NCBI GenBank assembly: GCA_963931515.1
Contig: OZ007022.1
Location: 882,122-946,121 of the forward strand
Reading direction: 5' to 3'
Source of the DNA: an uncultured Bacilli bacterium
Lineage (GTDB): Bacteria > Bacillota_I > Bacilli_A > RF39 > UBA660
Length of the DNA: 64,000 nt
The notes beneath the pieces are model-generated. The model saw only the letters and a list, made by a program, of their open reading frames with translations, searched no databases and was not told where the DNA came from. Position 1 is the first letter of the stretch; each line of letters begins with the position of its first letter. Shown piece by piece: positions 2,729-29,730 of this stretch. A program made the position numbers and the translations under genes.

Positions 2729-3562
2729 TTGTTATGTGAGTGTTTAAATATTCATCATTCAGTTTACTATTATCATTGCAATCATAAAGAAAATAGTTAT
2801 CATAAATCAAACCAAGAATTAGATGAGAAAATAAAACAAATATATTTTGAATCTAAGCGAAGATATGGTTCACCTAAAATAACTAAAGTGTTAAACCGAA
2901 AAGGCGTTAAAGTAAGTCAAAAAAGAGTTGCTAGAAGAATGAAAAAATTAGGTCTAAGAAGTATAATTGTTAAAAAATATAATCATGCAAGTAGTTCAAA
3001 AAGCGATGAAACAAAAGAATATTCAAACCTTTTAAAGCAAGCTTTTTCAGCTAATAAACCAAGTGAGAAATGGGTCAGTGATATAACTTATATTTATACC
3101 AATGAAACAGGATGGACATATTTAGCTGTAGTTATAGACTTATTTGATTTAAAAGTGGTTGGTTGGTCTTATGGAATCAAAATGACAGATGACTTAGTAA
3201 TAGATGCTTTTAAAAAAGCAATGATAAATCGTGGATTAAACAAAGATGGTATATTTCATTCTGACAGAGGTAGTCAGTATACATCAAATGATTTTGGAAA
3301 ATTATTAAACCAACATAATATAAAACATTCATATAGTAAAAAAGGTTATCCATATGATAACGCAAGTATGGAAAGCTTCAATGCCATATTAAAGAAAGAA
3401 GAAGTAAATGTTAATACGTATAAAACATTTAAAGAAGCAAAACTAGCAATCTTTGAATTTATTGAAAGTTGGTACAACAATCACAGGATTCATAGTACAC
3501 TAGGATATATAACTCCAAATGAAAAATTTAATCAATATAAAGCTAGTTTAGCTATAGTTTAA
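2729..3562 (+). CDS. IS3-family transposase OrfB (DDE integrase core); probably made as an OrfAB fusion by -1 frameshift
   Basis: rve-type catalytic core (WVSDITYI...HSDRGSQYTS...YDNASMESFN); the -1 frame is open from the A7G site (2644-2651) into this ORF; annotated start is TTG. Confidence 0.8.
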   Translation: MLCECLNIHHSVYYYHCNHKENSYHKSNQELDEKIKQIYFESKRRYGSPKITKVLNRKGVKVSQKRVARRMKKLGLRSIIVKKYNHASSSKSDETKEYSNLLKQAFSANKPSEKWVSDITYIYTNETGWTYLAVVIDLFDLKVVGWSYGIKMTDDLVIDAFKKAMINRGLNKDGIFHSDRGSQYTSNDFGKLLNQHNIKHSYSKKGYPYDNASMESFNAILKKEEVNVNTYKTFKEAKLAIFEFIESWYNNHRIHSTLGYITPNEKFNQYKASLAIV

Positions 3563-3613: not shown

Positions 3614-4033
3614 TTATTTACATGTATAGCCTTGCACTTCTAAAACTTGTTTTAATTCGGAGATGGTTATTTCTTGGGTGGTGTCTATTCCTATGAAACT
3701 ACCACCATGTTCTTTGGTTACAAATCTAATTCCATCATCGGTTACAGAGGCGCTCATATATGGTTTAGTTTGTCTTATCATATTAACATAATTTTGTCTT
3801 TGGTCTAAAAGTTCTTCTGGGAAAATCATATTAACGGTAAATACCATATCTTTTATTTTTTTATTATTAACTTTTATTTCTAGGTTTGATTTTGTTTTAA
3901 TATTAGATGAGGTGCCTTCGGCTGTGCAGGTTAAGGTTTTGGTGTTTTTAGAGTCAATTAAGAAAACTATAATTCCAAATGCTATGAGTAATAATACTAT
4001 AAATACTATCAACTTTTTATCTATTTTTTTCAT
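3614..4033 (-). CDS. Hypothetical membrane-anchored protein (139 aa)
   Basis: N-terminal TM helix; last gene of a ccdA / thioredoxin-like / this-gene operon on the minus strand. Confidence 0.5.
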   Translation of the reverse strand: MKKIDKKLIVFIVLLLIAFGIIVFLIDSKNTKTLTCTAEGTSSNIKTKSNLEIKVNNKKIKDMVFTVNMIFPEELLDQRQNYVNMIRQTKPYMSASVTDDGIRFVTKEHGGSFIGIDTTQEITISELKQVLEVQGYTCK

Positions 4034-6239: not shown

Positions 6240-7719
6240 GATGGCCTCCTATTTGTTCGTTTCGCTTTTTGGTGGTAGCGACTTTTTCTAAATCCATAAG
6301 TTTTAAAATGGAATTTTTGCCATATTTTTCTTTAATGTTTAAAAGGGTCCCCTGGAGTTTTCTTTCTTTTGCTTCTTCTCTTTTTTCATTTTCTAAAATG
6401 TTAGTTTGTTTTTCTGAATCTGAAAATAAATCTAGTTGATGATATTTTGTTTTATGAATTTCTAATTTTTCATCTGTTACATCAATGGCGGTTAGGTTAA
6501 TTCTTTTGATTAATAGTTTGGGATTAATAATTTTATCATATAGTTTTATTAGGTTATTCATGATTATTTTAGAAGATGATGTTTTATGGGTTAAGGTTAT
6601 GGTCCCGTGAGCATGTTTAGGAATTTTTCTTCCATAAAAGTCAGTGGTTATTTCTCCTTCATAATTATTATTTATGTTTTGAATGTCATAACCAATGGTT
6701 AAGGTTAGTTTATCTGTGACAAGGCTTTTGGCTGTAAGGTCAAGGGCAAGTGAATCAGCCATTTCACAGATAACTAATTTAGTTTCTTTATAATTATATG
6801 GACAATCAAGTACTTGACCTGAGGTTATACATCTATTATTTGGAGTATAGGATTTTATAGACTCTATTGTACATGGCTCATATCCCCAAGCATGATCGAT
6901 TAATAGTTCGGCATTTATACCGAATAATTTATAAAGTAAGTCTTCATTTTGAATAGAACATCTAGCAATATCTCCCATGGTATAGATGCCATACTTTTCT
7001 AATCTTTTGGCTATTCCTTTACCTACCCGCCAAATATCGGTAATTGGTTTATGATACCATATTTGTTTTCGATAAGACGTTTCATCAAGTTTAGCTATTC
7101 TAACACCATATTTGTTTGGCTTTGTGTGTTTGGCAACGATGTCCATTGCAACTTTAGCTAGAAATAAATTGGTACCTATGCCAGCAGTGGCAGTAATACC
7201 TGTTTGTTTATAAATGTCATTAATTATTTTGGTGACAAGTTCTTCTGAGGCAAGGTTATAGTATTTTAAATAATTAGTTATGTCGGCAAATATTTCATCA
7301 ATGGAATATACAAATATGTCATCACTTGATAAATATTTTAGATATATGCTATAGATTTTGGCTGATGTATCTATATAATGAGCCATTCTGGGTTTGGCTA
7401 TTATGAAAGATAATTCTTTGGTTTTATCTTTTTTTAATTCATCATCATTAGATGATCGACCAGTAAATGGTTTATAACTATTTTGTTTTTTTCTTAGTTT
7501 ATTTATTTCTTTGACTTTTGATATTACTTCAAATAGTCTTGCTCTACCACCTACTCCATACTGTTTTAATGATGGGCTTACGGCAAGGCAAATGGTTTTT
7601 TCAGTTCTTTCTTTATCAGCAACAACGAGGTTTGTTTTTAAAGGATCTAATCCTCTTTCTACGCATTCTACTGAAGCATAGAAACTTTTTAAATCGATAC
7701 ATATATATGTCTTTTCCAT
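6232..7719 (-). CDS. Y-family (translesion) DNA polymerase, UmuC/DinB/UvrX-like
   Basis: N-terminus MEKTYICIDLKSFYASVECVERGLDP and palm/fingers region typical of the ImpB/MucB/SamB family; 495 aa. Confidence 0.8.
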   Translation of the reverse strand: MEKTYICIDLKSFYASVECVERGLDPLKTNLVVADKERTEKTICLAVSPSLKQYGVGGRARLFEVISKVKEINKLRKKQNSYKPFTGRSSNDDELKKDKTKELSFIIAKPRMAHYIDTSAKIYSIYLKYLSSDDIFVYSIDEIFADITNYLKYYNLASEELVTKIINDIYKQTGITATAGIGTNLFLAKVAMDIVAKHTKPNKYGVRIAKLDETSYRKQIWYHKPITDIWRVGKGIAKRLEKYGIYTMGDIARCSIQNEDLLYKLFGINAELLIDHAWGYEPCTIESIKSYTPNNRCITSGQVLDCPYNYKETKLVICEMADSLALDLTAKSLVTDKLTLTIGYDIQNINNNYEGEITTDFYGRKIPKHAHGTITLTHKTSSSKIIMNNLIKLYDKIINPKLLIKRINLTAIDVTDEKLEIHKTKYHQLDLFSDSEKQTNILENEKREEAKERKLQGTLLNIKEKYGKNSILKLMDLEKVATTKKRNEQIGGHHA

Positions 7720-8660: not shown

Positions 8661-8699
8661 TTAGCTATTTTATATAAGAACAAAATACCAAAATAAATT

Positions 8700-8812
8700 T
8701 TGGCATTAGCTTACCTCACGGTAAGCTTTTTCTACTTCACAGAAACCTAAGGCTTCTCCATAGACCAGTATCGGATGGTTGCCACCCTAATTTTTTTGTC
8801 AAAATTTATTGA
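8700..8812 (-). ncRNA. Candidate omega-RNA (reRNA) scaffold in the right end of the tnpB element
   Basis: Directly abuts the tnpB stop codon (8813-8815); two hairpins (gcttacc-tcac-ggtaagc; agaaacc-taa-ggcttct); the second locus copy keeps the hairpins through compensatory substitutions. Confidence 0.45.
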
Positions 8813-23766: not shown

Positions 23767-24458
23767 CTTTTTCTCACCGCCTCGTAAATGACTAAAGCAG
23801 CTGCGACTGAAGCATTTAAACTGTTTACAGTACCATACATTGGTATTTTGGCTATAAAGTCACAGTTCTCAGCTACTAGTCTACTCATTCCTTTTCCCTC
23901 GTTACCGATAATAAGAGCTATTTTTCCGGTATAATCTATTTTTTTGTAATCAGTTCCTTCCATATCAGTTCCAATAATCCAAAATCCGTTATCTTTTAAA
24001 GTCTTGATGGCATTTGTAAGATTGCTGACCATAGCTATATTTACTTTTTCTAAGGTTCCAGCACTAGTTTTCATAACTGTAGCATTTACTTTGACAGACC
24101 TATCTTTAGGTATGATTATACTAGTTATACCGGCAGCTTCACAGGTTCTGATGATGGCTCCAAAATTATGTGGATCTTCTAAGTGATCTAATATTACTAT
24201 AATATTTTTGTCTAATAATTTATCTAAAAAACAATAATTATAGTCTTTGATATCGAGAATAATACCTTGATGATTTCCGTTTTCAATTTTATCTAATTCA
24301 TGTTTAGGTAATAATTTGGTTTGAATGTTATTGTCTTTTATTTTATTTAATATATCTTTGTCATTGAAGTTGTCATAAAGATATATTTTATTTACGATTT
24401 TTGGATTATTTAATATTTCTTTTGCGACGTTTTTTCCAAATACATGCATTTTAATCAC
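23763..24458 (-). CDS. rlmB: TrmH-family 23S rRNA 2'-O-methyltransferase RlmB
   Basis: SpoU methylase motifs (LDHLEDPHNFGAIIRT, LIIGNEGKGMSRL). Confidence 0.75.
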   Translation of the reverse strand: MIKMHVFGKNVAKEILNNPKIVNKIYLYDNFNDKDILNKIKDNNIQTKLLPKHELDKIENGNHQGIILDIKDYNYCFLDKLLDKNIIVILDHLEDPHNFGAIIRTCEAAGITSIIIPKDRSVKVNATVMKTSAGTLEKVNIAMVSNLTNAIKTLKDNGFWIIGTDMEGTDYKKIDYTGKIALIIGNEGKGMSRLVAENCDFIAKIPMYGTVNSLNASVAAALVIYEAVRKR

Positions 24459-25197
24459 CTACTATATATTTCATAATTTCATTTATTCTGTTTTGATTAT
24501 TTTTGATTTCTAAATAACCTAATAGAGCTTCAAGTCCGGTGGCTTTTTTATAAGTTATTATACTAGTATGTTTAGGATGAGATAGAACTTTATGATTTCT
24601 AGCTCTTTTGACGATTTCCAATTCTTCACTGGTTAGAAAGTTATCTTCTATCATTTTATCTAGAAAATTACTTTGGGCTTTAGCTGATACGTATTTTATG
24701 GCCATTTCTTGTAAGTCTTTTACTTTATAATTTCCCTTTTTGGTTAAATATTTTCTGATATACAGTTCATATGTGGCATCTCCTAGATAGGCTAAGGCTA
24801 GAGAATTTATATTTAAAATGTTTAAGTAATTTAATATAAGTTTAATATCGTTTTGGTCTTTTTCTCTATTTAATGTTTTTTTTAATTTTAAAACTTCTTC
24901 TGGAGTTTGAACTAAATAGTTTTCAATTGTTTTTCCTTTGTATTCATTATAATAATGAGTACTAAAGTTAATAATATTATCTATGAAATAAACTTTATAA
25001 TTATCTATTTCTTTATCGAAGGTGCAGTTAAATGTTTTTAGTAATATGTCATTATACTCTTTTGTTACGGCAATATCAATATCATGACATGTATCTTTAA
25101 TGCCATTTAATACTAAAGCAGCAGAGCCAATTATGATGATGTTTTGGCTATCTAAATTATATTTTTGTAATATTTGTAGTACTTCACTTTTATTCAT
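24451..25197 (-). CDS. mrnC: Mini-ribonuclease III-like protein with an extra ~115-aa N-terminal region
   Basis: C-terminal half carries the Mini-III signature (SLALAYLGDATYELYIRKYL); N-terminal half is unassigned. Confidence 0.6.
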   Translation of the reverse strand: MNKSEVLQILQKYNLDSQNIIIIGSAALVLNGIKDTCHDIDIAVTKEYNDILLKTFNCTFDKEIDNYKVYFIDNIINFSTHYYNEYKGKTIENYLVQTPEEVLKLKKTLNREKDQNDIKLILNYLNILNINSLALAYLGDATYELYIRKYLTKKGNYKVKDLQEMAIKYVSAKAQSNFLDKMIEDNFLTSEELEIVKRARNHKVLSHPKHTSIITYKKATGLEALLGYLEIKNNQNRINEIMKYIVGD

Positions 25198-26053
25198 TTT
25201 CTTCTATCCTATCAAAAGTTACCCCTTTAATATAGCCATTTTTTACATCACCAATTATTAATGATATTACTTTATCATAGTCGATATTTCCACCTTTAAT
25301 TAGACAGCCTCTTTTTTTGCCTATTTCTTCGATACTTGTGACGATATCTTCATCTAGATAATCTAAATTATATCTTTCTTTTAAGATATTAGGATAATAT
25401 TTTTCTAAGGTAATTAAGATATGACAAGCAACATCAAATAAAGGTAAGGTTTCTTCTTTAATAGCTGTTAGGGCCGCTAGATTTAAAGCTTCTCTTTGAT
25501 CTAGTTTTGGCCATAGTATACCTGGGGTGTCTAGTAATTCTATTTTGTCATTTACTCTTATCCAACCAATACTTTTAGTAACTCCTGGTTTATTACCAAT
25601 ACTAGCGACTTTTTTACCAGCCAAATGGTTTATTAAGGTTGATTTTCCAACATTTGGGACACCTATTACTAATACTCTTGCTTTCCTATTTAAAAGGCCT
25701 TGTTTTTCTCTTTTTTCCCACTTTTCTTTTAAAAGTTTCTCTGTTGTATTTAAAATCTGCTTTAAATTACTATTATTTTCTAAATTAATAAGAATAACGG
25801 TATAGCCTTTACTTTCATAGTATTTTATCCATTTGTTGGTTTCATCTTTATCACATAAGTCAGCTTTGGTCATTATCATTAATCTTGGTTTATCACTAGT
25901 GTATTCATCAATATCAATTATTTTAGATGACTTAGGCATACGACTATCTACTACTTCATAAATGATATCAATGTATTTTAAATTTTCTTTGATTAATCTT
26001 TTGGTTTTAGCCATATGACCAGGGTACCAGTTAATATTTAGTTTCTCATTCAT
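25190..26053 (-). CDS. rbgA: Ribosome biogenesis GTPase A (RbgA/YlqF)
   Basis: MNEKLNINWYPGHMAKT start and circularly permuted GTPase motifs (DSRMP, VIGVPNVGKST); ATG at 26051-26053 preferred over the track's upstream GTG. Confidence 0.8.
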   Translation of the reverse strand: MNEKLNINWYPGHMAKTKRLIKENLKYIDIIYEVVDSRMPKSSKIIDIDEYTSDKPRLMIMTKADLCDKDETNKWIKYYESKGYTVILINLENNSNLKQILNTTEKLLKEKWEKREKQGLLNRKARVLVIGVPNVGKSTLINHLAGKKVASIGNKPGVTKSIGWIRVNDKIELLDTPGILWPKLDQREALNLAALTAIKEETLPLFDVACHILITLEKYYPNILKERYNLDYLDEDIVTSIEEIGKKRGCLIKGGNIDYDKVISLIIGDVKNGYIKGVTFDRIEENE

Positions 26054-26067
26054 TATAATCACTTCCT
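26019..26067. repeat. 49-bp direct repeat, copy 1 (covers the rbgA RBS and first codons)
   Basis: agttaatatttagtttctcattcattataatcacttcctatttattgttt recurs at 27109-27157 with a single-T difference. Confidence 0.8.
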
Positions 26068-26069
26068 AT

Positions 26070-26920
26070 TTATTGTTTCATTTCTAATTTCTTGTTTACC
26101 TTACCTTCTAATCGTTTTCTTTCTTTTTCAAGTTCTTTTAAACTTTTCTTAGGTGTAGGCATATCTTCGGGCATCATTCCACCAATGTCAGCAATCGCTT
26201 TTCTAACCTTTTTACCCACTTCATAATGGACATTTTTGGCATTGTATTCTCCTTGAACATTATCCCTTATAAGTTTTTGCTTCGTTTGATTGATTCTAAA
26301 CAAATTAGCTACTAGCTCATCATCATTCATATTATCTAAAATATCTTCTCTATATCGTAACTTTTTTCTTTTAAAAATGTCATCAGCTGTTTCACCATTG
26401 TATAGTCCTTTATATCCCGCATTATGAAACTCAGCCATATTTTTACTCCTGCAGATGAGGCAACTTTTTGTAAAGTATAATTACCTTGTTTTGTTAATTT
26501 TCTTTGATAAAGTCTTTTTTCATCCTCTGATAGAGAATCATATTCTTGTTCGGTGATTTCCTGCTTTCTCGTTTGAACAGCAAAATAAGTTTGACCTAAT
26601 GCGACAACTTCTTTACTTGGATCAGCATTTTGTACTATCAAATAACAAATATATCTTGATAATTTATAATCCTTAATAAATTCTTGTTTGCCTTTTCCTG
26701 TTTTTATTGGCTTGTTGATTTCAACAACCCAATCTTCATTACCATGAATACTATTATTTGCAGACATTATTGCTTTATCAATTACTTTCTTAAAATTTCT
26801 CCAATCTTTATATTCTAAAACCTTTTGCAGATCACGGGCAAGCCAATATTCGTTACCATATTCATCAATATGTTTTATATCTTCAAAAGTTTTACTAGTA
26901 TATTTATTAACAATTTCCAT
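26070..26920 (-). pseudogene. dinD: DNA-damage-inducible protein D (DinD) homologue, frameshifted
   Basis: Two overlapping ORFs (26336-26920 and 26070-26438) together align along DinD (LSRYICYLIVQNADPSKEVVALGQTYFAVQTRKQE; EFHNAGYKGLY...MPTPKKSLKELE); frames switch at the T5 run 26440-26444. Confidence 0.7.
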
Positions 26921-27108
26921 TATGCTTGCCTCCTTTTTAAAATATAATATATAAGTTTTTATCCTACTATATCAACTAAAAAATACCTCATTTTTGAATA
27001 AAAATAACTTTTTTTGCTATTTTTAGTCATTTTTAAAAAAATACGCAATGTTTCAATGCTCGTAAATTCTTTATTTATAAAGATTTTTCAAAGGGATTTA
27101 CTAAATTG

Positions 27109-27157
27109 GTATCAAGCAGTTAATATTAGTTTCTCATTCATTATAATCACTTCCTAT
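27109..27157. repeat. 49-bp direct repeat, copy 2
   Basis: Near-identical to 26019-26067; the two copies bracket the dinD pseudogene. Confidence 0.8.
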
Positions 27158-27260
27158 TTATTGTTTAAATAGCAAAATGTATTTATCATTATTACTGCCT
27201 GTTAAATCTATTTAATTATATCATAAATTTAAAGCAAAAGAAAAAGTAGTATTTTTACTA

Positions 27261-27743
27261 CTAATTAGAATAATTAATTTGAATGTATTTTAGTATTTCT
27301 TCAATGTTTTTTTCAGAAACGAAGTCATAACCTTTATGAAACATTTCTTTTGTTTTAGAATCTTTTTGTTTCATGGCTTTTCCAGCTAGTTTGACAATTA
27401 TCTTTTTGAATATATTTAATTTTGAATAGTTAATGCCACCTCTTAGGTAAAATAAAGGTTTATCTATTTGATTAGATTTTTTTAGTTCATTTAGATAATC
27501 ACTAGAAAAAGGATAAGCCCCGACAGCACCATAGATAACGATGTTAAAGTTATCTTGAAGTTTAGATTTCCCTTGTATTTTTCCAGCACAAATCCATCCT
27601 AAAAAAATAGCTTTATCTTCTTTGGTTAAATGTTTTGCTGCTTCGGCTGAAGTATAATATGGAATTTTTAGTTTGTCACTTAACATTTTGGCATATCTTA
27701 AGGTGTGATTTGTTTTACTTTCGTATATTATAGCTTTAATCAT
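27261..27743 (-). CDS. Flavodoxin-like protein (160 aa)
   Basis: MIKAIIYESKTNHTLRYAKML N-terminus typical of short flavodoxin-fold proteins. Confidence 0.5.
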   Translation of the reverse strand: MIKAIIYESKTNHTLRYAKMLSDKLKIPYYTSAEAAKHLTKEDKAIFLGWICAGKIQGKSKLQDNFNIVIYGAVGAYPFSSDYLNELKKSNQIDKPLFYLRGGINYSKLNIFKKIIVKLAGKAMKQKDSKTKEMFHKGYDFVSEKNIEEILKYIQINYSN

Positions 27744-27835
27744 AAAATAGACTCCTTTATAATCTTTAATATTATTATATCATACATTATCAAAAACGAA
27801 ATATTCATAGAACAAAAGTCAAAAATTATTTTAAC

Positions 27836-27945
27836 TTAGCTTACCTCACGATAAGCTTTTTCTACTTCACAGGGACCTTAGGTCCCTCCATAGACCAATA
27901 TCGGATAGTCGCTACCCTACTTTTTTACTTTGTCAAAATTTAACA
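27836..27945 (-). ncRNA. Orphan omega-RNA-like structured module (second copy of the tnpB right end, no tnpB attached)
   Basis: About 85% identical to 8707-8808; hairpin 2 differs by paired substitutions (agggacc-tta-ggtccct versus agaaacc-taa-ggcttct), hairpin 3 likewise; strand inferred from the tnpB-linked copy. Confidence 0.45.
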
Positions 27946-28110: not shown

Positions 28111-28215
28111 TAGTATAAAAAAGGGGTGAAATAAATTTCACCCTTCACCCTAACGGGTGATTTTTTTTGCTTTAATCAAAATTTATTGGTAAAATTTAGT
28201 TTAAAGTGATGTTAT

Positions 28216-29376
28216 ATGATATTGTGTACTAGTAAAGATAAAGATTTTGAAAATTATAAAGAACGTATTTCTATTAGAAAAGTATTTTTTACTATTAAAG
28301 AAATTTTTAAAGATCATTGGGATGATTATCAAACTAAATATTCTCATATTAAAAGACGTCCTATTATCAATATTGTAATTGATAAATTTCTTAAATGTAA
28401 AACTTTTCTTCTTGGTTATTCTGTTTATAAATGTCCTATTTGTGATAAGGAAAAAGTTGTCCCTAATACTTGTAAAACTAGATTCTGTTCTTCTTGTGGT
28501 AATAAATACAATGAAGATAGAGCTATTTCTATCTTTTCTAAACTATTTAAATGGCGTCATCGTCATGTTGTTTTTACTATTCCAGAAGATTTAAGAGGAA
28601 TCTTTCAAAATAATAGAAAACTATTAAATCTTCTTTTTCAAGCTTCTGCTATTACTATTAAATATTGGTTTAAAGAAAAATACAAAAGGGACAATCTCAT
28701 TCCTGCCTTTATATCTGTCCTTCATACTTATGGTAGAGCTTTAAATTGGAATCCACACATTCATATGATTTTATTAGATGGTGGTATATCCAAAACAAAT
28801 TTTAAAAACATAGACTTCTTTTCATATGCTTCTTTCAGAAAACGATTTATGAAAGTCATTCTAGATTTATTAGAAAATGAACTTGGAAAAGATGAATTTA
28901 GACAAATCAAAAACGATTTATATCGTAGATACAAAGATGGCTTTTATGTTTACGCCCCTAAATCATTATATAAATCTATTAAAGATCTCTTAAAATATGT
29001 TTGTAGATATTTATCGAGACCTGTTATGGCTGAATCTCGTATTTTAGATTATGATGGTATCTTTGTCACCTTTTGGTATCAAAGGCATACTGATAACGTA
29101 ATTGTTATAGAAAAAATTCATGCTTATGAATTTATTCATCGATTAATTATTCATATCCCTGAACCAAATTTTAAATATATTAGATTTTATGGTGCTTACA
29201 ATAACAAAACTATTATTACTATTGATGTAGCTAAATTTATGGATAATGACAGAATTAATTTTAAAAAATCTCTAAACAAATGGCGTAATAAAATTTTAAT
29301 TAATTTTCATGTTGATCCTCTTATTTGTCCACATTGTCACGAAGAAATGGTATACTATAATAGTTACTACACGTAA
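28216..29376 (+). CDS. IS91-family (HUH, Y2) rolling-circle transposase
   Basis: N-terminal zinc-binding CPICDK...CKTRFCSSCG; HUH motif LHTYGRALNWNPHIHMILLDGG; catalytic tyrosine pair in LKYVCRYLSRPVMAESRI. Confidence 0.75.
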   Translation: MILCTSKDKDFENYKERISIRKVFFTIKEIFKDHWDDYQTKYSHIKRRPIINIVIDKFLKCKTFLLGYSVYKCPICDKEKVVPNTCKTRFCSSCGNKYNEDRAISIFSKLFKWRHRHVVFTIPEDLRGIFQNNRKLLNLLFQASAITIKYWFKEKYKRDNLIPAFISVLHTYGRALNWNPHIHMILLDGGISKTNFKNIDFFSYASFRKRFMKVILDLLENELGKDEFRQIKNDLYRRYKDGFYVYAPKSLYKSIKDLLKYVCRYLSRPVMAESRILDYDGIFVTFWYQRHTDNVIVIEKIHAYEFIHRLIIHIPEPNFKYIRFYGAYNNKTIITIDVAKFMDNDRINFKKSLNKWRNKILINFHVDPLICPHCHEEMVYYNSYYT

Positions 29377-29389
29377 CTAAGGAGGTCAT

Positions 29390-29638
29390 ATGAAACAAAA
29401 TTTATATATTAATAATTCTAATGAAGAATTTGATACTTGGTTTTATGATAATACATCTGATGATATTGAAACTACTTGTTTATCCTGTGGTTATACAGAA
29501 TTAGTCCCTGATTTTATTTATGATGAAATGTCTAGAAAAAAATACCATTTTAAAATTAGAAAAAAAGTTTCTACTTTAACTTGTCAAAAATGTGGCAAAA
29601 ATACAGCTATTCCTTCATCGTTTTTAAAAAATAACTGA
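29390..29638 (+). CDS. Small zinc-ribbon protein (82 aa) immediately downstream of the IS91-family transposase
   Basis: Two CxxC pairs (CLSCGY, CQKCGK); strong RBS AAGGAGG; followed by a hairpin terminator at 29655-29690. Confidence 0.5.
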   Translation: MKQNLYINNSNEEFDTWFYDNTSDDIETTCLSCGYTELVPDFIYDEMSRKKYHFKIRKKVSTLTCQKCGKNTAIPSSFLKNN

Positions 29639-29704
29639 TGTTATTCTTTTTGGCATGTTCATATTTTTCATCACCTATTTTTTAGGTGATTTTTTTATCC
29701 ATTC

Positions 29705-29730
29705 TATAAATGCACTTTCCTTATATATAA
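29705..29730. repeat. Second copy of the IS200/IS605-type left-end terminal block
   Basis: aaatgcactttccttatata matches 10048-10070 at the outer left end of the tnpB element. Confidence 0.5.

What the first reader, a model, noticed from the sequence alone, without database searches (positions are those of the whole stretch)
26019..27157. dinD pseudogene bracketed by 49-bp direct repeats that duplicate the rbgA start
The sequence covering the rbgA RBS and first nine codons (26019-26067) is repeated at 27109-27157 with a single-T difference. The ~1.04 kb between the copies contains only the dinD homologue and its upstream region. This looks like a DNA segment inserted or duplicated between rbgA and its original promoter region.
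Basis: seen in the sequence. Interest (0 to 1): 0.45.

Follow-up and report, generated by a model that had tools for sequence, protein, structure and literature searches.

The report
Mobile gene cassette inserted at rbgA
The repeat is real: it marks the two junctions of a ~1.1-kb mobile cassette, carrying a now-frameshifted dinD-like candidate phage-defence gene, that inserted at codon 9 of the essential ribosome-assembly gene rbgA and brought its own copy of the gene's start; the same spot is an insertion hotspot in many uncultured gut Bacilli, probably served by paired large serine recombinases.

Summary
The repeat exists, but its boundaries are 26028-26078 and 27117-27166 (51 vs 50 nt, one A/T-run indel, 41 nt exact; none expected by chance). 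The region is identical in three independent assemblies, so it is not an artefact. Both copies end at AACTG, inside the Trp codon of the conserved INWYPGHM motif of RbgA. The rbgA-side copy continues into rbgA. The distal copy lies just downstream of the ancestral rbgA promoter and continues into a conserved ~190-nt element arm (CTTGATACC...), followed by dinD. dinD is split by a 6A-to-5A slip and is intact in sister strains.

In sister strains the copy after dinD is followed by a second arm and further elements instead of rbgA. One such element ends next to rbgA with two large serine recombinase (LSR) genes. Duplicated rbgA starts, the same arm, LSR pairs and single-gene candidate defence cargo recur upstream of rbgA in many related MAGs. 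dinD is 85-93% identical between hosts whose housekeeping genes are 65-74% identical.

Verdict: this is a recombinase-less cassette bounded by attL/attR at an rbgA integration hotspot. It resembles both Tn5253 integration at rbgA and SCC-like tandem cassettes. It is a new variant of a known kind, of moderate interest.

The parts
25190..26053 (-). rbgA (ylqF), ribosome biogenesis GTPase, 287 aa from the ATG at 26053. This is the target gene of the insertion.
   Evidence: TIGR03596 GTPase_YlqF, 332.8 bits against a cutoff of 208. The ATG start is conserved in relatives.
26003..26027 (-). B' arm: rbgA codons 9-17 (G GTACCCTGGTCATATGGCTAAAACC, WYPGHMAK). This is the host-side half of the integration site, and its extent is approximate.
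   Evidence: 78 of 80 rbgA relatives carry AT(C/T/A)AA(C/T)|TGGTA(T/C)CC at this position. Contigs L100 and L102 begin exactly at AACTGGTACC.
26028..26078 (-). Direct repeat copy 1: the element-borne arm (P arm) that gives rbgA its RBS, ATG and codons 1-8. It ends in the proposed crossover dinucleotide TG (26029-26028). Its first 9 nt are the last two codons and stop codon of dinD.
   Evidence: The same 51 nt follow dinD in L085 and L086, where they abut a second element arm instead of rbgA.
26070..26920 (-). dinD-like gene (Bro-N domain; PADLOC PDC-S13), inactivated by a -1 frameshift in an A run (5 A at 26440-26444, 6 A in intact alleles).
   Evidence: NF008573 hits of 204.1 and 125.1 bits on the two halves, with contiguous profile coverage. 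Repair and identity to P0002. PADLOC PDC-S13, E = 4.7e-96.
26930..27116 (-). Element-side arm ('module'). It contains the P' half-site CTTGATACCAATTTAGTAAATCCC (27116->27093), the palindrome CTTTATAAATAAAG (27082->27069), and a second TTGATA motif (26977->26963) that doubles as the -35 of a promoter-like site for dinD (TTGATA-18-TATATT, 26975->26946).
   Evidence: It is conserved at 69-87% identity after each repeat copy in L085, L086 and L089, and upstream of rbgA in L038, L049, L063, L066, L067, L074 and L076. Promoter scan. No Rfam family matches.
27117..27166 (-). Direct repeat copy 2, forming the left junction (attL-type) together with the module. It is a vestigial rbgA start with a 1-nt deletion and would encode only MNEKLILTA*.
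   Evidence: The same 1-nt deletion is present in L085, L086 and L087.
27198..27223 (-). Ancestral rbgA promoter/leader: extended -10 TGATATAAT (27223->27215) plus TAAATAGATTTAACAGG. It is now 1.16 kb from the rbgA start codon.
   Evidence: Homologous to the sequence directly upstream of rbgA in L006 and of the attL-type junction in L088 (0 of 2000 shuffles; sequences).
27241..27743 (-). Flavodoxin-like gene (27261-27743) and its AT-rich terminator-like hairpin (27261->27246 plus a T run). This is the upstream neighbour and lies outside the cassette.
   Evidence: PF12724, 29.3 bits. The hairpin was read from the sequence; the consensus terminator scan did not call it.

Best explanation
The two repeats are the junctions of a small, non-autonomous integrative cassette: 1088 bp from core to core, 27116->26029, with a single cargo gene, dinD. 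It sits at a dedicated integration site inside the 5' end of rbgA.

How the site works
- Recombination takes place at the dinucleotide TG of AAC-TG-G, the Trp-9 codon of the conserved INWYPGHM motif.
- This would cut off the RBS and first 8 codons of an essential gene. Every element of this family therefore carries, at its right end, its own RBS, ATG and N-terminal codons, which fuse in frame to WYPGHM.
- In this host the element-borne copy is almost identical to the resident 5' end, so the junctions appear as a 51-nt direct repeat.
- The left junction (copy 2 plus CTTGATACC...) keeps the old promoter and a dead start codon. The right junction (copy 1 plus GTACCCTGG...) is the working rbgA start.
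- rbgA is now most likely transcribed together with dinD.

The enzyme
- It is most likely a pair of large serine recombinases encoded by bigger elements that use the same site, acting in trans.
- The right junction also serves as a fresh attB, so elements stack in tandem. Sister strains have further cassettes, or a large ParA/ParB/SpaA/sortase element, between dinD and rbgA.
- The window strain has the dinD cassette only, with dinD since inactivated by a homopolymer slip.

Shown
- The repeat, the junction position, the promoter homology, the tandem arrays, the presence of LSR genes next to rbgA in relatives, and horizontal spread of dinD.

Inferred
- That the LSRs catalyse the events, that TG is the cleavage dinucleotide, that single cassettes move on their own, and that dinD and rbgA are co-transcribed.
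For: 1. Junction
- The copies diverge exactly after AACTG: GTACCCTGG (rbgA) vs CTTGATACC (module).
- Same-species contigs L100 and L102 start at AACTGGTACC. L099 replaces everything 5' of it with a different RBS and N-terminus, MKNNEIQGGLHKSVIN.

2. Occupied versus free site
- L085 and L086 are 99.3-99.6% identical to window 28122-26028.
- In both, the repeat after dinD is followed by a second module (81-87% identity) and then ParA/ParB/HTH_36/SpaA/sortase, or RhuM.

3. Recurrence
- Duplicated rbgA starts occur upstream of rbgA in L039, L043, L062, L063, L064, L066, L071 (3 copies), L074, L076 and L077. Most end at AA(C/T)TG(G) and are followed by the module.
- The module is always co-oriented with rbgA and upstream of it.

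4. Recombinase
- LSR genes (Resolvase + Recombinase + Zn_ribbon_recom) lie directly upstream of rbgA on the same strand. They occur as pairs in L017, L028/L083, L044 and L099, and as a single gene in L079. They are also present in L034 and L063.
- 10 of 113 ORFs within 4 kb upstream of rbgA are LSRs.
- No tyrosine integrase appears among the 25 most frequent Pfam families of these 113 ORFs, or among 10 further integrase-sized ORFs.

5. Site architecture
- Reconstructed attP sites read AT(C/T)AAC-TG-(C/G)TTGAT: 6-bp inverted arms around a 2-bp non-palindromic centre, as expected for serine recombinases.

6. A long repeat is not required
- In L103 the arms flanking dinD share only CAACTG.

7. 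Mobility
- dinD is 85-93% identical at the nucleotide level between hosts whose rbgA, lepB and rplS are 65-74% identical.
- It sits next to rbgA even where the upstream synteny differs, for example infB-rbfA-truB in L107.

8. Ancestral promoter
- It lies upstream of copy 2.

9. Literature
- Integration at the rbgA 5' end, with a duplication that restores the CDS, is established for Tn5253 (PMC6079316, PMC8571831).
- Recombinase-less tandem cassettes mobilised by LSRs are established for SCC elements (PMC11470126).
Against: - There is no recombinase gene in the cassette or anywhere in the 64-kb window, so no enzyme can be assigned to this copy.
- The link between the module-type left ends (L085) and the LSR-bearing right end (L099) rests on two separate contigs from one sample. 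Only L063 shows LSRs and modules on one contig.
- The characterised rbgA-targeting elements (Tn5252 family) use a tyrosine integrase, and long direct repeats are more typical of that class.
- A serine recombinase does not by itself create 51 nt of identity. This needs a second assumption: that the element arm mimics, or was homogenised with, the host sequence.
- Copy 2 is not in the exact native context. About 45 extra nucleotides separate it from the promoter, compared with L006. It may therefore be the arm of an older, lost cassette rather than the original host arm. The decayed-copy reading of this stretch was not significant (264 of 2000 shuffles).
- All relatives are metagenome assemblies, and nothing was tested experimentally.
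Confidence: 0.7

Rival explanations
1. The picture is the same (a site-specific integrative cassette or remnant at the rbgA 5' end), but the enzyme is a tyrosine integrase of the Tn5252/Tn5253 type. The crossover would lie somewhere inside the 51-nt identity, and the LSR genes seen next to rbgA in relatives would belong to unrelated elements.
For: - Tn5253 integrates at the rbgA 5' end with 83/84-bp direct repeats that contain the first 20 nt of the CDS plus upstream sequence, and it needs Int/Xis (PMC6079316; PMC8571831).
- Streptococcal ICEs at rbgA encode tyrosine integrases (PMC4701971).
- Long direct repeats and ~200-nt conserved arm regions are typical of lambda-type att sites (own knowledge).
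- The 6-nt identity in L103 (CAACTG) is compatible with a tyrosine-recombinase overlap region.
Against: - No tyrosine integrase was seen in any gene table of the related contigs.
- None was seen among the 25 most frequent Pfam families of 113 hotspot ORFs, or in 10 integrase-sized ORFs.
- LSR genes abut rbgA in at least 6 loci.
- The inverted arms are separated by 2 bp, not 6-8 bp.
Confidence: 0.1
2. No dedicated recombinase is involved. The dinD segment entered, or the rbgA start was duplicated, by homologous or illegitimate recombination: Campbell-type single crossover of a circular DNA sharing about 50 nt with the rbgA start, or unequal crossing-over within a variable island. The repeat would simply be the homology used.
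For: - 51 nt of near-identity is within reach of RecA-dependent recombination (own knowledge).
- P arms attached to dinD differ between hosts (MNEKLNIN, MNDSKTNIN, MINEEKGFQKGNIN), which shows that recombination or gene conversion reshuffles these ends.
- L043 has a different, longer duplication that runs past the AACTG point into rbgA.
Against: - The junction falls at the same dinucleotide in many species whose flanks are not homologous.
- In L103 only 6 nt are shared between the two junctions.
- A conserved element-side arm with a half-site that is the inverted image of the rbgA-side arm follows each junction.
- Recombinase genes are enriched at the site.
Confidence: 0.1
3. The upstream copy is kept because it does something, for example as a decoy RBS or leader peptide that couples or attenuates transcription and translation of dinD and rbgA.
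For: In several junctions the vestigial start opens a short ORF that reads into the module: MNEKLNINCLIPIYLTPLRNPYK* in L085 and MSKNKNEEVYKIGINCLIPIYLTPLKKLYK* in L089.
Against: - The peptide length and sequence are not conserved: 9 aa in the window because of the 1-nt deletion, and 13 aa in L086.
- No terminator or attenuator-like structure was predicted and no RNA family matches.
- The short-module cassettes (L088, L103) lack most of the region.
Confidence: 0.03
4. Assembly artefact: the second copy or the frameshift results from mis-assembly or homopolymer sequencing error.
For: Both differences (AAA/AA in the repeat, A5/A6 in dinD) are homopolymer-length changes, the usual long-read error type.
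Against: - The 2.1-kb region is identical in three assemblies made with different assemblers and, judging by contig names, different read types.
- The AA variant of copy 2 is also present in L085, L086 and a Logan contig, L087.
- The A6 allele is found in other samples with otherwise 99% identical flanks.
Confidence: 0.01

Closest known systems
Tn5253 / Tn5252-family ICE integration at the 5' end of rbgA in Streptococcus (PMC6079316, PMC8571831, PMC4701971)
   Same: - Same target gene and same end of it.
- The site comprises the first codons of rbgA plus upstream sequence.
- The element brings a copy that restores the CDS.
- The integrated element is flanked by imperfect direct repeats, whose length equals the extent of identity between the host and element arms (17-84 nt in different hosts).
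- Integration occurs just after a short conserved coding motif.
   Different: - Tn5253 is a 65-kb-class conjugative element with tyrosine Int/Xis.
- Here the unit is 1.1 kb with one gene and no recombinase.
- The recombinases found at the site in relatives are large serine recombinases.
- The hosts are uncultured low-GC gut Bacilli.
- The elements form multi-cassette arrays.
SCC / SCCmec and recombinase-less SCC-like tandem cassettes at rlmH (orfX) in staphylococci (PMC11470126)
   Same: - Paired large serine recombinase genes sit on the autonomous members.
- There is a fixed site at the end of a conserved ribosome-biogenesis gene.
- Each junction regenerates a usable site, so cassettes stack in tandem.
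- Cassettes without recombinase genes are bounded by att sites.
- The cargo is enriched in (candidate) anti-phage genes.
   Different: - The target is the 5' end of rbgA, not the 3' end of rlmH, so the element must supply an RBS and start codon.
- The LSRs are only distant relatives of CcrA/B/C (70-106 bits against cutoffs of 700-900).
- Cassettes can be as small as about 1 kb with a single gene.
- Nothing has been shown experimentally.
CIMEs (cis-mobilisable elements) and accretion at ICESt1/ICESt3 att sites in Streptococcus thermophilus (own knowledge; not checked in the library)
   Same: The unit is flanked by att sites but lacks recombination and transfer genes. It sits in tandem with a complete element at the same site.
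   Different: - Those systems use a tyrosine integrase at the 3' end of fda.
- CIMEs are thought to be decayed ICEs, whereas the dinD unit looks like a discrete single-gene cassette that recurs with the same boundaries in several species.
Integron gene cassettes
   Same: - Small, mostly single-gene, promoter-proximal and co-oriented cassettes are stacked at one site downstream of a resident promoter.
- Cassettes lack their own recombinase.
- Defence genes are among the cargo.
   Different: - There is no IntI (tyrosine recombinase) and no attC hairpin sites. IntI is absent from the 25 commonest Pfam families of the hotspot ORFs, and attC sites were not searched for.
- The cassettes carry their own promoter-like sequences.
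- The array is wedged into an essential gene's 5' end rather than next to an integrase gene.
E. coli DinD (NF008573 / PRK11525), an SOS-inducible protein
   Same: Full-length collinear match of the two halves to the DinD equivalog profile (positions 6-284 of 288), with an N-terminal Bro-N domain.
   Different: - The gene is frameshifted here.
- The context is a mobile cassette rather than a chromosomal SOS gene.
- No LexA-type box was looked for.
- PADLOC files this family as the candidate defence gene PDC-S13.

Membership tests
Integrative element targeting the 5' end of rbgA (Tn5253-type site usage) | Insertion within the first codons of rbgA, flanked by direct repeats, with the element-side copy restoring the CDS. 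| tested here: met
   The repeats at 26028-26078 and 27117-27166 include the RBS, ATG and 8 codons. rbgA is intact from the ATG at 26053.
Integrative element targeting the 5' end of rbgA (Tn5253-type site usage) | [quoted passage not shown] | tested here: not met
   The cassette has one gene (dinD). No tyrosine integrase appears in the related loci's gene tables or in the Pfam census.
Integrative element targeting the 5' end of rbgA (Tn5253-type site usage) | Conjugation module (a Tn5252/Tn1549-type ICE). | tested here: not met
   Only dinD lies between the repeats. The larger elements in L085, L086 and L099 were not analysed for conjugation genes.
LSR-mobilised tandem cassettes (SCC-like) | One or two large serine recombinase genes on the autonomous elements that use the site. 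| tested here: met
   Met in relatives only. LSR pairs lie directly upstream of rbgA in L017, L028/L083, L044 and L099, and a single LSR in L079. There is none in the window.
LSR-mobilised tandem cassettes (SCC-like) | Recombinase-less cassettes bounded by att-type junctions, in tandem with other cassettes at the same site. | tested here: met
   L085, L086, L089, L111 and L063 show repeat/module junctions between successive genes. The window holds the one-cassette state.
LSR-mobilised tandem cassettes (SCC-like) | Att sites built as inverted half-sites around a 2-bp crossover dinucleotide. | tested here: inconclusive
   AT(C/T)AAC-TG-(C/G)TTGAT is seen in reconstructed sites, and divergence starts right after TG. 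The cleavage position itself cannot be shown from sequence.
LSR-mobilised tandem cassettes (SCC-like) | Recombinases orthologous to CcrA/CcrB/CcrC, and a target at the 3' end of rlmH. | tested here: not met
   Best Ccr scores are 70-106 bits against cutoffs of 700-900. The target is rbgA.
LSR-mobilised tandem cassettes (SCC-like) | Recombinase-dependent excision and circularisation of the cassette. | not testable with these tools
   This needs PCR or read-level detection of the P arm-TG-P' circle junction, or in vitro assays.
DinD (NCBIfam NF008573, equivalog) | Full-length match above the curated cutoff (242 bits) as one intact protein. | tested here: not met
   The match is split: 204.1 bits (profile 6-167) and 125.1 bits (profile 168-284) on two overlapping frames. 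The gene is therefore a member by descent but a pseudogene in this strain.
Integron | IntI tyrosine recombinase next to attI, and cassettes ending in attC sites. | tested here: not met
   No Phage_integrase family appears among the 25 commonest Pfam families of the hotspot ORFs. The junction sequences are rbgA-start mimics plus a conserved arm, not imperfect-palindrome attC sites. attC folding was not formally tested.

The most novel reading that the evidence does not exclude
The rbgA start in this clade of gut Bacilli may be the docking site of an integron-like cassette system run by paired large serine recombinases. In this reading, ~1-kb single-gene units (dinD/PDC-S13, RhuM/PDC-S05, YhcG/PDC-S02, KilA-N/PDC-S22) each carry an attP made of a mimic of the rbgA 5' end plus a conserved arm. 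They would be captured, stacked, shuffled and exported individually in trans. Each capture would rewrite the RBS and N-terminus of an essential ribosome-assembly GTPase, which would explain the recurrent, element-class-specific RbgA N-termini seen across species.
Probability: 0.4. Interest if true: 0.7.

Novelty: new variant of a known kind. Interest (0 to 1): 0.5.

Why it matters
For this window, the result turns an odd repeat into a clean annotation:
- attL and attR of a stranded cassette;
- a displaced native rbgA promoter;
- an element-derived translation start on an essential gene;
- a strain-specific dinD pseudogene.

More broadly, the 5' end of rbgA was known as an ICE site only in streptococci and enterococci, with a tyrosine integrase. 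The data here suggest it is also a widely used hotspot in uncultured low-GC gut Bacilli. There it is associated with serine-recombinase pairs, and very small cassettes of candidate anti-phage genes accumulate in tandem at it.

If the mechanism is confirmed, it would give:
1. a second SCC-like system, outside staphylococci, for studying trans-mobilisation of defence genes;
2. a natural set of LSR/att pairs with a conserved target, of possible use as integration tools;
3. a warning that RbgA N-termini, and the apparent synteny upstream of rbgA, are element-derived in these genomes.

Tried and rejected
- **Assembly collapse or homopolymer error.** Rejected: the sequence is identical in three assemblies, and the alternative alleles occur in other samples.
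- **Ordinary conserved intergenic repeat.** Rejected: the nearest relatives L005 and L006 have one copy only.
- **A third, decayed rbgA start between the promoter and copy 2 (27203-27167).** The promoter part aligns significantly to L006 and L088. The 37-nt stretch alone does not (264 of 2000 shuffles reach the score), so this is left as speculation.
- **The module as a known RNA.** No Rfam match at E <= 1. I did not pursue covariation, because the two TGATACC/TGATTACG motifs are direct repeats, not complementary.
- **Phage or satellite origin.** The P' motif gave 0 hits in IMG/VR. The DinD search gave only unnamed metagenomic proteins.
- **Recombinase in cis.** tblastn with two LSRs found nothing in the 64-kb window.
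- **Tyrosine integrase at the hotspot.** Not found in the 25 most frequent Pfam families of 113 ORFs or in 10 further integrase-sized ORFs. Single-member families beyond the 25 listed could not be inspected.
- **W-to-Y/F at codon 9 as an 'immune' attB allele.** This is seen in L005, L006 and L101. It is suggestive, but with n = 3 it is only noted.
- **Wasted search.** A literature search on DinD/PDC names matched 'Clavien-Dindo'.
- **Element walking.** I could not walk along the L086 and L099 contigs to join the two ends of the large element, because look-ups are limited to proteins from the window or from the homology search.
Full report
**1. The observation**

The repeat is real.
- On the minus strand (the coding strand of rbgA), 26078->26028 reads AAACAATAAATAGGAAGTGATTATAATGAATGAGAAACTAAATATTAACTG. 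27166->27117 is the same with one A fewer in the AAA run.
- The 41-nt exact core occurs twice in the window and never in 100 shuffles.
Their first 8-9 bases lie beyond the point where the copies diverge, and 11 repeated bases at the other end were missed.
- The repeat holds the rbgA RBS (AGGAAGTG), the ATG at 26053 and codons 1-8. It stops after the first two bases of the Trp-9 codon.
- rbgA itself is a clear YlqF/RbgA (TIGR03596, 332.8 bits).

Between the copies there is only dinD and 187 nt upstream of it.
- dinD is split into 194-aa and 122-aa ORFs that match the DinD profile NF008573 at positions 6-167 and 168-284.
- The shift lies in a run of five A at 26440-26444. One extra A restores a 283-aa protein about 99.6% identical to an intact database protein, P0002.

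**2. Not an artefact**

- Window 25190-27300 is found base for base in three ENA assemblies whose contig names indicate different assemblers (NODE_, tig, ctg; L001-L003).
- The one-base deletion in copy 2 is also present in L085, L086 and L087.
- The intact A6 allele of dinD occurs in L085 and L086, which are otherwise 99.3-99.6% identical to the window over 2.1 kb.
- The pseudogene is therefore a strain-level variant, and the repeat is a stable feature of the species.

**3. Which copy is where**

- Upstream of copy 2 lies TTATGATATAATTAAATAGATTTAACAGG. This aligns to the sequence directly upstream of rbgA in L006 (RbgA 88% identical, no insertion) and to the corresponding place in L088. None of 2000 shuffles reaches the score. 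It carries an extended -10 box (TGATATAAT, 27223->27215).
- Copy 2 thus sits at the old promoter, and copy 1 sits on the working gene.
- After the shared AACTG, copy 1 continues GTACCCTGGTCATATGG (W-Y-P-G-H-M). Copy 2 continues CTTGATACCAATTTAGTAAATCCC...
- No terminator-like site was predicted between dinD and rbgA. The dinD stop codon and the rbgA ATG are 16 nt apart, and a promoter-like site (TTGATA-18-TATATT, 26975->26946) precedes dinD. Co-transcription of rbgA with dinD is an inference from these facts.

**4. Sister strains show a tandem array**

- In L085 and L086 the order is rplS-lepB-flavodoxin-copy 2-arm-dinD, as in the window.
- There, however, the 51-nt copy after dinD (100% identical to copy 1) is followed by CTTGATACC... 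again, not by rbgA. This is a second copy of the ~190-nt arm, at 81-87% identity.
- After that come ParA, ParB, an HTH_36 protein, a SpaA-domain surface protein and sortase (L085), or RhuM, a third arm and ParA/ParB (L086).
- L099 comes from the same sample as L085 and shows what lies next to rbgA in such a strain. It has two large serine recombinase genes (fragmented in that assembly) and a 130-aa ORF. An element-borne promoter, RBS and a different N-terminus (MKNNEIQGGLHKSVIN) are then joined to rbgA at ...ATCAAC-TG-GTACCCTGG.
- L099 is 98.9% identical to the window from that point on.
- Two further same-species contigs (L100, L102) begin exactly at AACTGGTACC. This is what an assembly graph does where strains differ on one side of a fixed point.
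- The window therefore represents the state with the dinD cassette only. Its copy 1/rbgA junction is the site that larger elements use in sister strains.

**5. The same thing happens across the clade**

In the 80 GTDB loci retrieved with RbgA (all uncultured Bacilli/'Tenericutes'-type MAGs):
- 78 have ...AT(C/T/A)AA(C/T)|TGGTA(T/C)CC encoding INWYPGHM.
- Extra copies of the local rbgA start lie upstream of rbgA in L039, L043, L062, L063, L064, L066, L071 (three copies), L074, L076 and L077. Most end at AA(C/T)TG(G) and are followed by the arm.
- The arm was found only upstream of rbgA and only in its orientation.
- Aligned, the arm has five parts:
  - TG + (C/G/A)TTGAT(T)AC(C/G)(A/G)ATTTAT;
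  - a palindrome, CCTTATAAATAAAGG;
  - ATCTTGCAC;
  - an A-rich stretch;
  - a second, direct copy of TGATACC or TGATTACG that co-varies with the first, followed by the cargo gene's promoter and RBS.
- It matches no Rfam family.
- RbgA N-termini fall into recurrent classes that do not follow host relatedness: MNENKTNIN, xGGLHKSVIN, EGVNKIGIN, EKSFPKTxIN and long MDMYQKRK...VGIN. This is expected if the last element to arrive supplies them.

**6. Which recombinase**

- tblastn with two LSRs from L063 (Resolvase + Recombinase + Zn_ribbon_recom) found LSR genes immediately upstream of rbgA, on its strand. They occur in L017, L028/L083 and L044 (intact pairs of 550-571 and 528-538 aa), L079 (single, 402 aa) and L099, and also in L034 and L063.
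- In a census of 113 ORFs of at least 150 aa within 4 kb upstream of rbgA in 40 loci, 112 are co-oriented with rbgA and 10 are LSRs. LSRs are the most frequent family after the housekeeping signal peptidase. No tyrosine integrase is among the 25 commonest families. Ten further integrase-sized ORFs were not integrases.
- Reconstructed element sites read AT(C/T)AAC-TG-(C/G)TTGAT: 6-bp inverted arms around a 2-bp asymmetric centre. The host and element sequences part immediately after that TG. This architecture fits serine recombinases (own knowledge), but it is not proof.
- The LSRs are only remote relatives of CcrA/B/C and XisF.
- There is no LSR in the 64-kb window, so any movement of this cassette would need an enzyme supplied in trans.

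**7. The cassette is mobile cargo**

- dinD is 93.1%, 90.8%, 90.8% and 84.9% identical at the nucleotide level to the copies in L088, L103, L111 and L107. In those hosts rbgA, lepB and rplS are mostly 65-74% identical to the window.
- dinD sits directly upstream of rbgA even where the upstream synteny is different (infB-rbfA-truB in L107-L110). It also recurs with the same boundaries between different neighbours:
  - flavodoxin|dinD|rbgA in the window;
  - NTP_transf_6|dinD|RhuM in L088;
  - ASCH|dinD|rbgA in L103;
  - RhuM|dinD|RhuM in L111.
- In L103 the arm left of the cassette (MDNEQNSTNSN) and the arm right of it (MNDSKTNIN) share only CAACTG. The long repeat in the window is therefore not a requirement of the reaction. 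It reflects near-identity between this element's arm and this host's own rbgA start, through mimicry, capture or gene conversion. The same logic is documented for Tn5253, where repeat length varies from 17 to 84 nt with the host (PMC8571831).
- PADLOC classifies the recurrent cargo as single-gene candidate defence families: DinD = PDC-S13, RhuM = PDC-S05, YhcG/DUF1016 = PDC-S02 and the 280-aa KilA-N protein = PDC-S22.

**8. Comparison with what is known**

[quoted passage not shown] Decayed ICEs are recorded at this site in S. suis (PMC7168690).
- Tandem, recombinase-less cassettes rich in defence genes, mobilised in trans by LSRs, are established for SCC elements at rlmH (PMC11470126).
- The locus combines the target of the first with the apparent enzymology and array behaviour of the second.
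- It fails the membership tests for both families: there is no tyrosine Int or conjugation module, no Ccr orthology and no rlmH target.
- I therefore file it as a new variant of a known kind. The window's own feature is an ordinary, well-explained instance: a stranded cassette with a decaying gene.

**9. Confidence**

- That the repeat marks the junctions of an inserted, horizontally acquired cassette at a site-specific hotspot in rbgA: high, about 0.9.
- That large serine recombinases are responsible, and that TG is the crossover: about 0.7.
- That single-gene cassettes move individually: about 0.4-0.5.

Noticed in passing
window 28123-29725 (transposase 28216-29376 +; 82-aa ORF 29390-29638 +): An IS91-family (rolling-circle, Y2) transposase (NF033538, 274.6 bits) plus a small Cys-rich ORF form a ~1.6-kb insertion between lepB and the flavodoxin gene. 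It is absent from the otherwise 99-100% identical contigs L085 and L086.
   Followed up: partly
window 27800-27945 (minus strand); second copy at window 8677-8808; L005 90-234: A ~135-nt conserved non-coding element folds much better than shuffles (z = -4.0 on the minus strand, -1.7 on the plus strand) and has no Rfam match. It has an 82%-identical second copy in the window and an 85%-identical copy upstream of lepB in L005. It may be an unknown small RNA or a repeat element.
   Followed up: partly
window 24451-25197 (minus strand): The mini-RNase III gene downstream of rbgA carries an N-terminal ~120-aa DUF6036/nucleotidyltransferase-like extension (248 aa in total). The orthologous position in L103 and L107 encodes only the 114-121-aa RNase III domain.
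   Followed up: no
L101 1-60; L005 2497-2530; L006 8001-8035: A same-species rbgA allele (L101, 98% nt identity) and the two closest relatives without insertions encode NIN(Y/F)YPGHM instead of NINWYPGHM. They thus lack the TGG that holds the proposed TG crossover. These may be integration-resistant alleles, but there are only three cases.
   Followed up: partly
L062 ~7452-7500; L067 ~3189-3240: An inverted fragment of the rbgA YPGHM coding sequence (CCATATGGCCAGGA) abuts a P'-like TGATACCGATTTATAG site. This could be a product of recombination between sites in opposite orientation.
   Followed up: no
L017 4211-4510; L028 4281-4556; L099 5451-5726; L038 514-780; L074 4971-5285 and 7231-7524; L076 7286-7561: A small DUF6870 protein (88-104 aa) sits just upstream of the LSR pairs and also occurs alone in arrays without LSRs. 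It is a candidate accessory or directionality factor.
   Followed up: no
L043 2864-2917 vs 3836-3889: A different kind of duplication occurs at the same locus. A 54-nt exact copy runs past the AACTG point into rbgA codons 9-25, so not every duplication here has the same junction.
   Followed up: no
40 GTDB loci, 4 kb upstream of rbgA: 112 of 113 ORFs of at least 150 aa are co-oriented with rbgA. GNAT acetyltransferases (7) and HD-domain proteins (4) are common cargo besides LSRs (10) and Bro-N/DinD proteins (5).
   Followed up: partly
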